From a virus: a stretch of 10,449 nt of DNA. Below the pieces are notes generated by a model. It ran no database searches. It had not been told where the DNA came from and was given only the letters and a program-made list of their open reading frames with translations. Made by a program: the position numbers and the translations under genes. The stretch lies in UHGV virus genome UHGV-1344453; one strand, 5' to 3'. Below, piece by piece: positions 1,323 to 1,501 of the stretch (position 1 is its first letter; the number at the start of each line of letters is the position of its first letter).

Positions 1323-1501
1323 ACTGTTCACCACTGTTCACCCTGTCATAAATGTCTTTTATATCAGTATATTATAGGGTGAACAGTTATTTATGAACTG
1401 TTCACCAAACTATTCACTGTTCACCTTTTTGATTGTTTATTGAGCTTTAAGGGTGAACAGTGGTGAACAGTTGGTGAATAGTTTTTGTGAAACTGTTCAC
1501 C
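1323..1501. repeat. Iteron cluster: 8 perfect copies of TGTTCACC / GGTGAACA plus ~3 degenerate copies in an AT-rich context (ori/crr-like)
   Basis: Forward TGTTCACC at 1325, 1335, 1399, 1418, 1494. Reverse GGTGAACA at 1378, 1452, 1462. Degenerate copies at ~1342, ~1412, ~1473. TGTTCACC is the type I iteron bound by P4 alpha protein at ori and crr. Confidence 0.75.

What the first reader, a model, noticed from the sequence alone, without database searches (positions are those of the whole stretch)
1323..1501. Alpha-type iteron cluster immediately downstream of the primase gene
There are eight perfect TGTTCACC/GGTGAACA octamers in both orientations, plus degenerate copies, within ~180 bp of AT-rich DNA directly after the primase stop codon. 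This matches the type I iterons that P4 alpha protein binds at ori and crr. It is probably the replication origin or cis-acting replication region of the element. A 44-N gap starts 18 bp further on, so the cluster may extend into unresolved sequence.
Basis: partly seen in the sequence, partly recalled or inferred. Interest (0 to 1): 0.5.

Follow-up and report, generated by a model that had tools for sequence, protein, structure and literature searches.

The report
Replication origin of a phage satellite
The repeat cluster is real and is most likely the replication origin of a capsid-forming phage satellite (cf-PICI), built from the same 8-base binding sites that satellite phage P4 uses; it is a good example of a known kind of origin, not a new one.

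Summary
Eight perfect TGTTCACC octamers (all perfect 10-mers ACTGTTCACC) and two degenerate copies lie at 1323-1501, 12 nt after the stop codon, where chance predicts 0.4 per window. The 44-N run matches real sequence in relatives that holds one or two more copies. The upstream gene ends in a winged-helix domain homologous to the P4 alpha origin-binding domain (PDB 1KA8, E=1e-24). The octamer is the one annotated as the P4 ori/crr type 1 repeat. The element is not P4. It is a capsid-forming PICI of the EcCIEDL933 type. The cluster matches, nearly offset for offset, the experimentally tested ori of EcCICFT073, and its left half is collinear with the P4 ori core, including a 35-nt AT-rich spacer. 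Complete relatives have only this one cluster, so it is probably the sole origin and not a crr-like helper. In 80 related loci the cluster always follows the helicase gene. The iteron sequence falls into about seven variants (five or six wing types) that track a short hairpin segment of the binding domain exactly. This supports direct recognition. Verdict: interpretation supported; new member of a known kind; modest interest.

The parts
3..1310 (+). 3' part (435 codons) of the replication initiator gene. It is P4 alpha-like, with D5_N, an SF3 helicase P-loop domain and a C-terminal Pox_D5/winged-helix domain. The 5' end is cut off by the window edge.
   Evidence: Translation. Pfam hits D5_N, DUF5906 and Pox_D5. 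The full-length E. coli relative is 50% identical to P4 alpha residues 320-776.
981..1271 (+). Origin-binding winged-helix domain of the initiator (residues 327-423 of the partial translation).
   Evidence: phmmer hit to PDB 1KA8, the P4 alpha origin-binding domain, E=1.4e-24 over 97 residues.
1203..1235 (+). Segment KRKTKHGLRSN, the predicted beta-hairpin 'wing' after helix 3. It is the candidate determinant of iteron specificity (inferred).
   Evidence: The length and sequence of this segment partition exactly with iteron class in 84 loci. Its columns combine the highest mutual information with iteron class and near-zero within-class variation. The hairpin appears in a low-confidence AF2 model, strands 82-85 and 88-91, mean pLDDT 48.
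1311..1598 (.). Whole intergenic origin region between the initiator stop codon and the GTG start of the next gene.
1323..1332 (+). Iteron 1, ACTGTTCACC (perfect).
1333..1342 (+). Iteron 2, ACTGTTCACC (perfect), 10 bp after iteron 1.
1343..1377 (.). 35-nt AT-rich spacer (77% AT) bounded by convergent iterons. It is the candidate DNA-unwinding element.
   Evidence: It is the second least stable 35-mer of the whole window, top 0.05%. It has the same 35-nt length as the spacer in the P4 ori core.
1378..1387 (-). Iteron 3 (perfect, inverted).
1397..1406 (+). Iteron 4 (perfect).
1409..1418 (+). Degenerate iteron ACTATTCACT.
   Evidence: A TATTCACC copy is conserved at this position in relatives.
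1416..1425 (+). Iteron 5 (perfect).
1426..1451 (.). Second AT-rich spacer (26 nt, 77% AT).
1452..1461 (-). Iteron 6 (perfect, inverted).
1462..1471 (-). Iteron 7 (perfect, inverted), 10 bp after iteron 6.
1473..1482 (-). Degenerate iteron GGTGAATAGT.
1492..1501 (+). Iteron 8 (perfect).
1519..1562 (.). 44-N run. By comparison with relatives it hides one perfect inverted iteron (GGTGAACA) and an adjacent second copy, which is degenerate in E. coli and perfect in most other genera.
1841..2251 (+). Single-strand DNA-binding protein gene just downstream. It is a possible replication accessory and is not part of the cis element.
   Evidence: Pfam SSB, E=1.3e-16. It accompanies the module in only 5 of the fetched loci.

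Best explanation
The cluster is the vegetative replication origin (ori) of a capsid-forming phage-inducible chromosomal island. After the island is induced, its P4-alpha-like initiator/helicase binds the 10-12 TGTTCACC iterons through its C-terminal winged-helix domain. The iterons lie in both orientations, and tandem copies sit one helical turn apart. Binding on both sides of the 35-nt, 77% AT spacer (1343-1377) is proposed to distort and melt that spacer, so that the SF3 helicase ring can load and theta-type replication can start. Shown here: the repeats, their non-random occurrence, their identity to the annotated P4 type 1 repeats, the homology of the binding domain, the layout shared with the P4 ori and the EcCICFT073 ori, conservation of iterons over spacers, and co-variation of iteron sequence with the binding domain. 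Inferred: actual binding, the melting site, the helicase loading route, and which enzyme primes.
For: 1. The repeats are non-random: 9 octamers against 0.38 expected.
2. The sequence is the same as the annotated 'ori type 1 repeat' of P4 ori and crr.
3. The adjacent protein has a homologue of the P4 origin-binding domain 1KA8, E=1.4e-24, and its E. coli relative is 50% identical to alpha residues 320-776.
4. Window 1315-1432 aligns almost without gaps to the reverse complement of the P4 ori core. Both read two direct copies, a 35-nt AT spacer, one inverted copy, 13-14 nt, then three direct copies.
5. The iteron offsets from the stop codon match those of the EcCICFT073 ori. The window has 15>, 25>, 68<, 89>, 108>, 142<, 152<, 184> and about 228<. 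EcCICFT073 has 15>, 24>, 72<, 92>, 103>, 145<, 156<, 224<, 233<. For EcCICFT073, a pri-ori fragment supported plasmid maintenance and deleting either part impaired it (PMC6092414).
6. There is only one cluster per complete element: L083 (15-kb EcCIEDL933-type island), L001 and L084.
7. Across eight genera, iteron columns are 84-86% identical and spacer columns 54-58% (Mann-Whitney p about 1e-9).
8. In 80 related loci a cluster always follows the initiator stop codon, while the downstream genes differ.
9. Iteron variants (TGTTCACC, TGTCTACC/T, TCTCCACC, TGTCCGCC, TGTCCACC, TATCTACC, TATCCACC) partition without exception with the wing segment of the binding domain. Proteins 83-86% identical to the window's carry a different wing and different iterons. 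Proteins 50-67% identical (Xenorhabdus, P4) carry the same wing type and the same iteron.
10. The 35-nt spacer is the second least stable 35-mer in the window.
Against: Nothing here was tested experimentally for this element. In P4 the site at the homologous position, directly 3' of alpha, is crr, which is cis-required but is not where initiation was mapped (X51522 annotation). The right half of the cluster aligns with a crr repeat unit. In the EcCICFT073 test, deleting ori reduced colony numbers and was not reported to abolish them. Part of the cluster is hidden by Ns. The melting site is inferred from base composition alone. The structure model supporting the 'wing' label is of low confidence. 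Iteron classes partly follow clades, so the co-variation is not made up of fully independent events.
Confidence: 0.8

Rival explanations
1. The cluster is a crr-like cis-acting helper. It binds the initiator and stimulates replication, but initiation occurs at another site, for example one inside the initiator gene or further upstream.
For: The cluster occupies the same place as P4 crr, directly 3' of the alpha-type gene. Window 1370-1490 aligns with the P4 crr repeat unit: one inverted copy, direct copies, an AT spacer, then two inverted copies. A lone perfect octamer lies inside the helicase gene at 737-744 and is conserved in L001.
Against: No second iteron cluster exists in complete relatives or within 4 kb on either side in the 80 loci. 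The 120-bp duplication that defines crr is absent. The left half matches the P4 ori core, not crr. The homologous EcCICFT073 fragment together with its initiator was sufficient for plasmid maintenance.
Confidence: 0.1
2. The repeats are mainly operator sites through which the initiator, or another island protein, controls transcription of the downstream hyp-ssb-perC genes or of its own gene. Origin function would be absent or secondary.
For: The cluster fills the whole intergenic region upstream of the next operon. Iteron-binding initiators of plasmids commonly autoregulate (general knowledge).
Against: No sigma-70-like promoter on the + strand and no terminator was found in the uninterrupted E. 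coli copy. The downstream genes are replaced in most related loci while the cluster stays with the initiator gene. The layout matches two established origins.
Confidence: 0.06
3. The cluster is a chance occurrence, or an assembly artefact created next to the N gap.
For: An N run lies 18 nt away, and a second N run lies at 3760-3772.
Against: No shuffle out of 200 reached the observed count. The same cluster, uninterrupted, is present in complete E. coli chromosomes and in seven other genera.
Confidence: 0.01

Closest known systems
Satellite phage P4 origin (ori, 9310-9413 of X51522) and cis replication region crr (4291-4590)
   Same: The iteron octamer TGTTCACC is identical, and so is the 10-mer GGTGAACAGT. 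Tandem copies are 10 bp apart. The core layout is the same, with a 35-nt AT-rich spacer. The initiator has a homologous SF3 helicase and a 1KA8-type origin-binding domain. The position directly 3' of the initiator gene is the same as that of crr.
   Different: P4 is bipartite, with ori and crr about 4.7 kb apart and crr made of two 120-bp repeats. Here there is a single compact cluster of about 240 bp that combines an ori-like unit and a crr-like unit. The initiator of the E. coli relative lacks the zinc-ribbon and Toprim primase domains of alpha. The element carries its own capsid and packaging genes in place of sid/psu/delta.
Origin of the E. coli PICI EcCICFT073 (Fillol-Salom et al. 2018, ISME J, PMC6092414)
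   Same: It lies immediately 3' of the pri-rep gene, with sets of iterons flanking AT-rich DNA. The offsets and orientations of about 10 iterons are almost identical. It is followed by hyp-ssb-perC genes, and the element contains a single cluster.
   Different: The iteron sequence is T(G/A)TCTACC, not TGTTCACC, and the wing segment of the initiator differs correspondingly (TRKVKGVTQTN against KRKTKHGLRSN). EcCICFT073 is a classical PICI, not a capsid-forming one.
cf-PICI EcCIEDL933 family (Alqurainy et al., bioRxiv 10.1101/2022.09.08.507074)
   Same: The window is 84-93% identical at the DNA level, over the segments that align, to the island at the same roxA-phoQ (ycfD-phoQ) site that EcCICFT073 occupies, here in an O157:H7 strain (taken to be EcCIEDL933-type). 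The gene order is the same: initiator, ori, hyp, SSB, PerC, capsid, protease, portal, head closure, connector, HNH, TerS, TerL. That island has the identical iteron arrangement.
   Different: The sequences diverge by 7-10%, and the best E. coli match overall is 94.5%. The source organism of the window is unknown. I found no description of the ori of this family in the papers I could read.
[quoted passage not shown]
   Same: The general plan, as stated in PMC6092414: the ori lies immediately 3' of the replication initiator gene, with two sets of iterons around an AT-rich putative melting site.
   Different: The iteron sequences are unrelated and the initiator lineage is different. This comparison rests on the literature and was not tested here.

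Membership tests
P4 alpha-type (type 1) iteron site | Repeated octamer TGTTCACC in both orientations | tested here: met
   There are 8 perfect copies at 1325-1501. The P4 ori and crr repeats annotated in X51522 have the same sequence.
P4 alpha-type (type 1) iteron site | Cognate initiator with a C-terminal winged-helix origin-binding domain homologous to P4 alpha (PDB 1KA8) | tested here: met
   phmmer E=1.4e-24, residues 327-423.
P4 alpha-type (type 1) iteron site | Physical binding of the initiator to the iterons | not testable with these tools
   Only indirect support is available: the iteron class co-varies with the wing segment in 84 loci.
P4 bipartite replicon (ori + crr) | Two separate iteron clusters several kb apart, both required in cis | tested here: not met
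   There is a single cluster in the window and in the complete relatives L001, L083 and L084. No second cluster lies within 4 kb on either side in the 80 loci.
P4 bipartite replicon (ori + crr) | crr made of two 120-bp direct repeats | tested here: not met
   The repeat finder reports no long direct repeat, only iteron-sized families.
P4 bipartite replicon (ori + crr) | Initiator with an N-terminal zinc-ribbon and Toprim primase | tested here: not met
   The N-terminus is not in the window. The full-length E. coli relative (605 aa) has no Toprim or Zn_Ribbon_Prim hit, whereas P4 alpha has both. Its N-terminal 160 aa match phrog_864 'DNA primase' only.
Gram-negative PICI origin (Fillol-Salom 2018) | Located immediately 3' of the replication initiator (pri-rep) gene | tested here: met
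   The first iteron starts 12 nt after the stop codon.
Gram-negative PICI origin (Fillol-Salom 2018) | [quoted passage not shown] | tested here: met
   Iterons flank the 35-nt and 26-nt spacers, each 77% AT.
Gram-negative PICI origin (Fillol-Salom 2018) | Positional homology with the tested EcCICFT073 ori | tested here: met
   The iteron offsets and orientations are almost identical.
Gram-negative PICI origin (Fillol-Salom 2018) | Initiator plus ori fragment supports autonomous replication | not testable with these tools
   Reported for EcCICFT073 only (PMC6092414).
Capsid-forming PICI (EcCIEDL933 type) | Own capsid, protease, portal, connector, HNH, TerS and TerL genes downstream of the replication module | tested here: met
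   Pfam hits. The window is collinear, at 84-93% DNA identity over the aligned segments, with the annotated island L083.
Capsid-forming PICI (EcCIEDL933 type) | int and alpA at the left end; induction by a helper phage | not tested
   The left end lies outside the window. int and AlpA are present in relatives L001 and L083. Induction cannot be tested here.

The most novel reading that the evidence does not exclude
The origin and the last ~100 nt of the initiator gene form one exchangeable specificity cassette. The beta-hairpin wing of the alpha-type binding domain reads the central bases of the iteron (positions 2, 4, 5 and 6 of T-G-T-T-C-A-C-C). All ~12 iterons change in concert with the wing while keeping their positions. 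This gives at least six replicon specificity groups among enterobacterial satellites. Because this cf-PICI shares its group with P4, P4-like and cf-PICI satellites in one cell could cross-activate each other or compete for each other's initiators. On this view the split ori/crr arrangement of P4 is a derived form of a single composite origin 3' of the initiator gene.
Probability: 0.45. Interest if true: 0.5.

Novelty: new member of a known kind. Interest (0 to 1): 0.3.

Why it matters
The result locates the replication origin of a widespread satellite family. Sequences similar to this 1.4-kb region, which spans the end of the initiator gene, the ori and the next genes, occur in 1745 of 5426 complete E. 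coli genomes. It also shows that this origin uses exactly the P4 iteron, with a P4-type binding domain. That gives a concrete, testable prediction of replication cross-talk or incompatibility between P4-like satellites and cf-PICIs. P4-like satellites are reported in over 30% of Enterobacterales genomes (PMC8628076 abstract). The wing/iteron classes give a simple rule for designing specificity-swap experiments. None of this changes the established picture of how such origins work.

Tried and rejected
- An Rfam scan of the whole window found no RNA family.
- A promoter/terminator scan of the uninterrupted E. coli copy found one weak minus-strand promoter-like site and no terminator, which is uninformative.
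- A DnaA-box search found no site in the cluster.
- A single-sequence AlphaFold model of the binding domain was unusable, pLDDT 37. The model built with 30 homologues reached only pLDDT 48. I used it only for secondary structure and did not send it to a fold search.
- The primary P4 replication papers (Ziegelin 1993, Tocchetti 1999) are not held in the library. Statements on alpha binding therefore rest on the GenBank annotation, on paper titles cited in PMC8628076 and PMC2777425, and on my own knowledge.
- A full-text search for the octamer returned only unrelated primer sequences.
- I considered and rejected a packaging (cos/pac) role. The cluster is about 6 kb from terS/terL, and it co-varies with the helicase domain, not with the packaging genes.
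- I considered and rejected a frameshifted capsid pseudogene. The apparent split is caused by a 13-N run.

Full report
**Observation**

The octamer TGTTCACC occurs nine times in the 10,449-base window. Eight copies lie between 1325 and 1501: on the + strand at 1325, 1335, 1399, 1418 and 1494, and on the - strand at 1378, 1452 and 1462. The ninth lies inside the upstream gene at 737-744. Dinucleotide-preserving shuffles give a mean of 0.38 copies, and none of 200 reached nine.

All eight clustered copies are also perfect 10-mers ACTGTTCACC. Two degenerate copies lie at 1409-1418 and 1473-1482. The upstream ORF ends with TAA at 1308-1310, so the first 10-mer begins 12 nt after the stop codon. 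The region is 66% AT overall and 77% AT in the spacers between repeats, against 47-48% in the flanking genes. The N run is exactly 1519-1562.

**The N gap**

The closest complete relatives in E. coli align collinearly on both sides of the N run. They are L001 (94.5% identical over the queried region, window 900-2300) and L083 (91.2% over the same query, about 93% over the initiator-ori segment). They have 43-45 nt where the window has 44 N. That stretch reads AAAAGGTGAACAgGTGAAGGG in E. coli and AAAGGTGAACAGGTGAACAC in Citrobacter, Klebsiella, Raoultella, Pluralibacter and Pantoea. The cluster therefore continues into the masked stretch with one perfect inverted copy and a second full or degenerate copy. 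The gap is not a sign of a collapsed or duplicated assembly. A second N run (3760-3772) interrupts the capsid gene and explains its apparent split into two ORFs.

**What the element is**

The window encodes the following, in order:
- the 3' part of a D5_N/SF3-helicase protein (to 1310)
- an 81-residue protein of unknown function (1599-1844, phrog_1231)
- an SSB (1841-2251)
- a PerC regulator (2262-2519)
- a major capsid protein
- an S78 prohead protease (4260-4835)
- a portal protein (4837-6051)
- a head completion protein
- a large terminase (7748-9409)

The window is collinear, and 84-93% identical in DNA over the segments that align, with an island in E. coli O157:H7 (L083). That island is inserted between roxA and phoQ. 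It is annotated with integrase, an AlpA-like regulator, initiator, SSB, PerC, capsid, protease, portal, head closure, connector, HNH, TerS and TerL. This is the organisation of the capsid-forming PICIs typified by EcCIEDL933 (bioRxiv 10.1101/2022.09.08.507074). So the element is a cf-PICI, not a P4-type satellite.

Residues 327-423 of the partial protein (nt 981-1271) match the crystallised origin-binding winged-helix domain of P4 alpha (PDB 1KA8) with E=1.4e-24. The full-length E. coli relative (605 aa) is 50% identical to alpha residues 320-776, which cover the helicase and the origin-binding domain. It lacks the zinc-ribbon and Toprim primase domains of alpha. Its first ~145 residues have no Pfam or PDB match and hit only a PHROG labelled 'DNA primase'. 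'Primase' is thus an annotation label. What the window shows is a helicase with an origin-binding domain.

**Comparison with P4**

GenBank X51522 annotates TGTTCACC as the 'ori type 1 repeat' both in ori (9310-9413) and in crr (4291-4590). crr lies directly 3' of alpha. The window cluster therefore sits where crr sits.

Its layout, however, matches both P4 sites. Window 1315-1432 aligns almost without gaps to the reverse complement of the P4 ori core, which is the same orientation relative to the initiator gene. Both have two direct copies 10 bp apart, a 35-nt AT-rich spacer, one inverted copy, 13-14 nt, and then three direct copies. Window 1370-1490 aligns to a crr repeat unit: an inverted copy, direct copies, an AT spacer, then two inverted copies.

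The 120-bp duplication of crr is absent. Complete relatives have no second cluster anywhere in the island. The arrangement is a single compact composite, not the bipartite P4 replicon.

**Comparison with a tested PICI origin**

Fillol-Salom et al. (PMC6092414) describe Gram-negative PICI origins as iteron sets flanking an AT-rich region immediately 3' of the initiator gene. They showed that an EcCICFT073 pri-ori fragment maintains a temperature-sensitive plasmid, and that deleting either part impairs maintenance.

I fetched that island (L084, coordinates from their Table S1). Its nine T(G/A)TCTACC copies all lie in the intergenic region after the initiator gene. Their offsets from the stop codon are 15>, 24>, 72<, 92>, 103>, 145<, 156<, 224< and 233<. 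The window's offsets are 15>, 25>, 68<, 89>, 108>, 142<, 152<, 184> and about 228<. The window cluster is therefore the positional and architectural homologue of an experimentally supported origin, with a different iteron sequence.

**Comparative evidence for function**

A scan of one genome per species returned 80 loci encoding relatives of the initiator, 61-88% identical, in Enterobacterales. In almost every locus the ~400 nt after the stop codon contain a cluster of a repeated octamer; it is weak in a few loci such as L012, L065 and L074. The genes beyond the cluster differ. Only three fetched loci have the 81-residue protein, five have SSB and four have PerC. About ten have cf-PICI packaging genes within reach. 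The cluster thus travels with the initiator gene and not with the downstream genes.

Among loci with the TGTTCACC iteron from eight genera, iteron positions are retained. Iteron columns are 84-86% identical to the window and spacer columns 54-58% (Mann-Whitney p about 1e-9).

**Co-variation with the binding domain**

In a common register the iterons fall into these variants:
- TGTTCACC (with TATTCACC variants)
- TGTCTACC/T
- TCTCCACC
- TGTCCGCC
- TGTCCACC
- TATCTACC
- TATCCACC

T1, T3 and C7 are invariant across these variants, A6 and C8 nearly so; positions 2, 4 and 5 (and 6 in the TGTCCGCC variant) vary. The variants partition without exception with a short segment of the binding domain:

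| Wing segment | Length change | Iteron |
|---|---|---|
| KRKT-KHGLRSN and relatives, including P4 KRHT-KQGIQTN | none | TGTTCACC |
| KKST-KGNMRSN | +1 residue | TCTCCACC |
| CTRGPDKGRTISN | +5 residues | TGTCTACC |
| AESKKKATRGRIQSN | +5 residues | TGTCCGCC |
| LTRTIKGRRQTN | none | TATCTACC |

This is not simply overall divergence. Proteins 83-86% identical to the window's (L009-L011) have a different wing and different iterons. Proteins only 67% identical (Xenorhabdus) or 50% identical (P4) have the same wing type and the same iteron. L076 and L021, from one metagenome-assembled genome, share the first two-thirds of the domain but differ in wing, tail and iterons.

The wing columns combine high mutual information with iteron class and almost no within-class variation. 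Helix 3 is nearly unchanged between classes. An AlphaFold model built with 30 homologues is of low confidence (pLDDT 48). It does place a beta-hairpin (residues 82-85 and 88-91 of the fragment, KRKT/GLRS) after the third helix, as expected for the wing of a winged-helix domain.

Between classes the layout is kept site for site. L018 has TCTCCACC at essentially the same offsets where the window has TGTTCACC. All copies have therefore changed in concert with the protein.

**Mechanism**

The best-supported reading is that the cluster is the island's sole origin. The initiator would bind the 10-12 iterons through its winged-helix domain. The tandem copies at 10-bp spacing would place the bound domains on one face of the helix.

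The 35-nt spacer at 1343-1377 is flanked by convergent iterons. It has the same length as the P4 ori spacer and is the second least stable 35-mer of the window, so it is the likely melting site where the SF3 helicase is loaded. The island's own SSB gene lies 340 nt downstream.

Binding, melting, loading and priming are all inferred. No DnaA box lies in the cluster. No RNA family, terminator or convincing promoter was detected.

**Rivals**

- A crr-like helper role is the main alternative. The position and the similarity of the right half support it. The absence of any second cluster, the ori-like left half and the sufficiency of the EcCICFT073 fragment argue against it.
- A purely transcriptional operator role is unlikely, because the downstream genes are exchanged freely while the cluster stays with the initiator.
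- Chance and assembly artefact are excluded.

**Novelty and interest**

The iteron, the binding domain, the origin layout and the element family are all already described. This is a new member of a known kind.

Three side results are of some interest:
- A cf-PICI uses exactly the P4 iteron, which predicts cross-talk with P4-like satellites.
- The origin combines P4 ori-like and crr-like units in one cluster.
- The wing segment and the iterons behave as a linked specificity cassette with at least six classes.

Noticed in passing
window 3760-3772: A second N run (13 N) lies inside the major capsid gene and makes it appear split into ORFs 3009-3788 and 3745-4224. Both halves match the intact capsid protein of L083. 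The split is therefore a masking or gap effect, not a pseudogene.
   Followed up: yes
L001 7594-8073 (upstream of the window's left edge): The initiator annotated 'DNA primase family protein' has no Toprim or zinc-ribbon primase domain, unlike P4 alpha. Its N-terminal ~145 residues have no Pfam or PDB match and hit only phrog_864 'DNA primase' and phrog_2850 (unknown function). What primes replication of these islands is unclear.
   Followed up: partly
L003-L084, the ~400 nt after each initiator stop codon: Related loci carry at least six iteron classes (TGTTCACC, TGTCTACC, TCTCCACC, TGTCCGCC/TGTCCACC, TATCTACC, TATCCACC) at conserved offsets. Each class pairs with a distinct wing segment in the binding domain, and all ~12 sites change in concert.
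   Followed up: yes
window 737-744 (- strand); L001 8838-8845: A lone perfect TGTTCACC lies inside the helicase coding region and is conserved in the closest E. coli relative. L083 has one at a different place (8633, + strand). From memory, P4 is reported to have a second origin inside alpha. I did not examine this further.
   Followed up: no
L028-L082 (Xenorhabdus and Photorhabdus loci): These genomes carry many copies of this initiator-plus-iteron module. X. ehlersii DSM 16337 has five or more loci and X. budapestensis has four. Most have fewer perfect iterons and different downstream genes.
   Followed up: no
L083 4481-18856; L084 931-11655: The cf-PICI in O157:H7 and the classical PICI EcCICFT073 occupy the same roxA(ycfD)-phoQ attachment site. 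They share the int, alpA, initiator, ssb and perC layout, but they have different iteron classes and different morphogenesis modules.
   Followed up: partly
window 9430-10449: The right end of the window is AT-rich and contains several of the least stable 35-mers. It has small ORFs on the minus strand (9439-9711, 9818-10087). These may be accessory genes or the island end. I did not analyse them.
   Followed up: no
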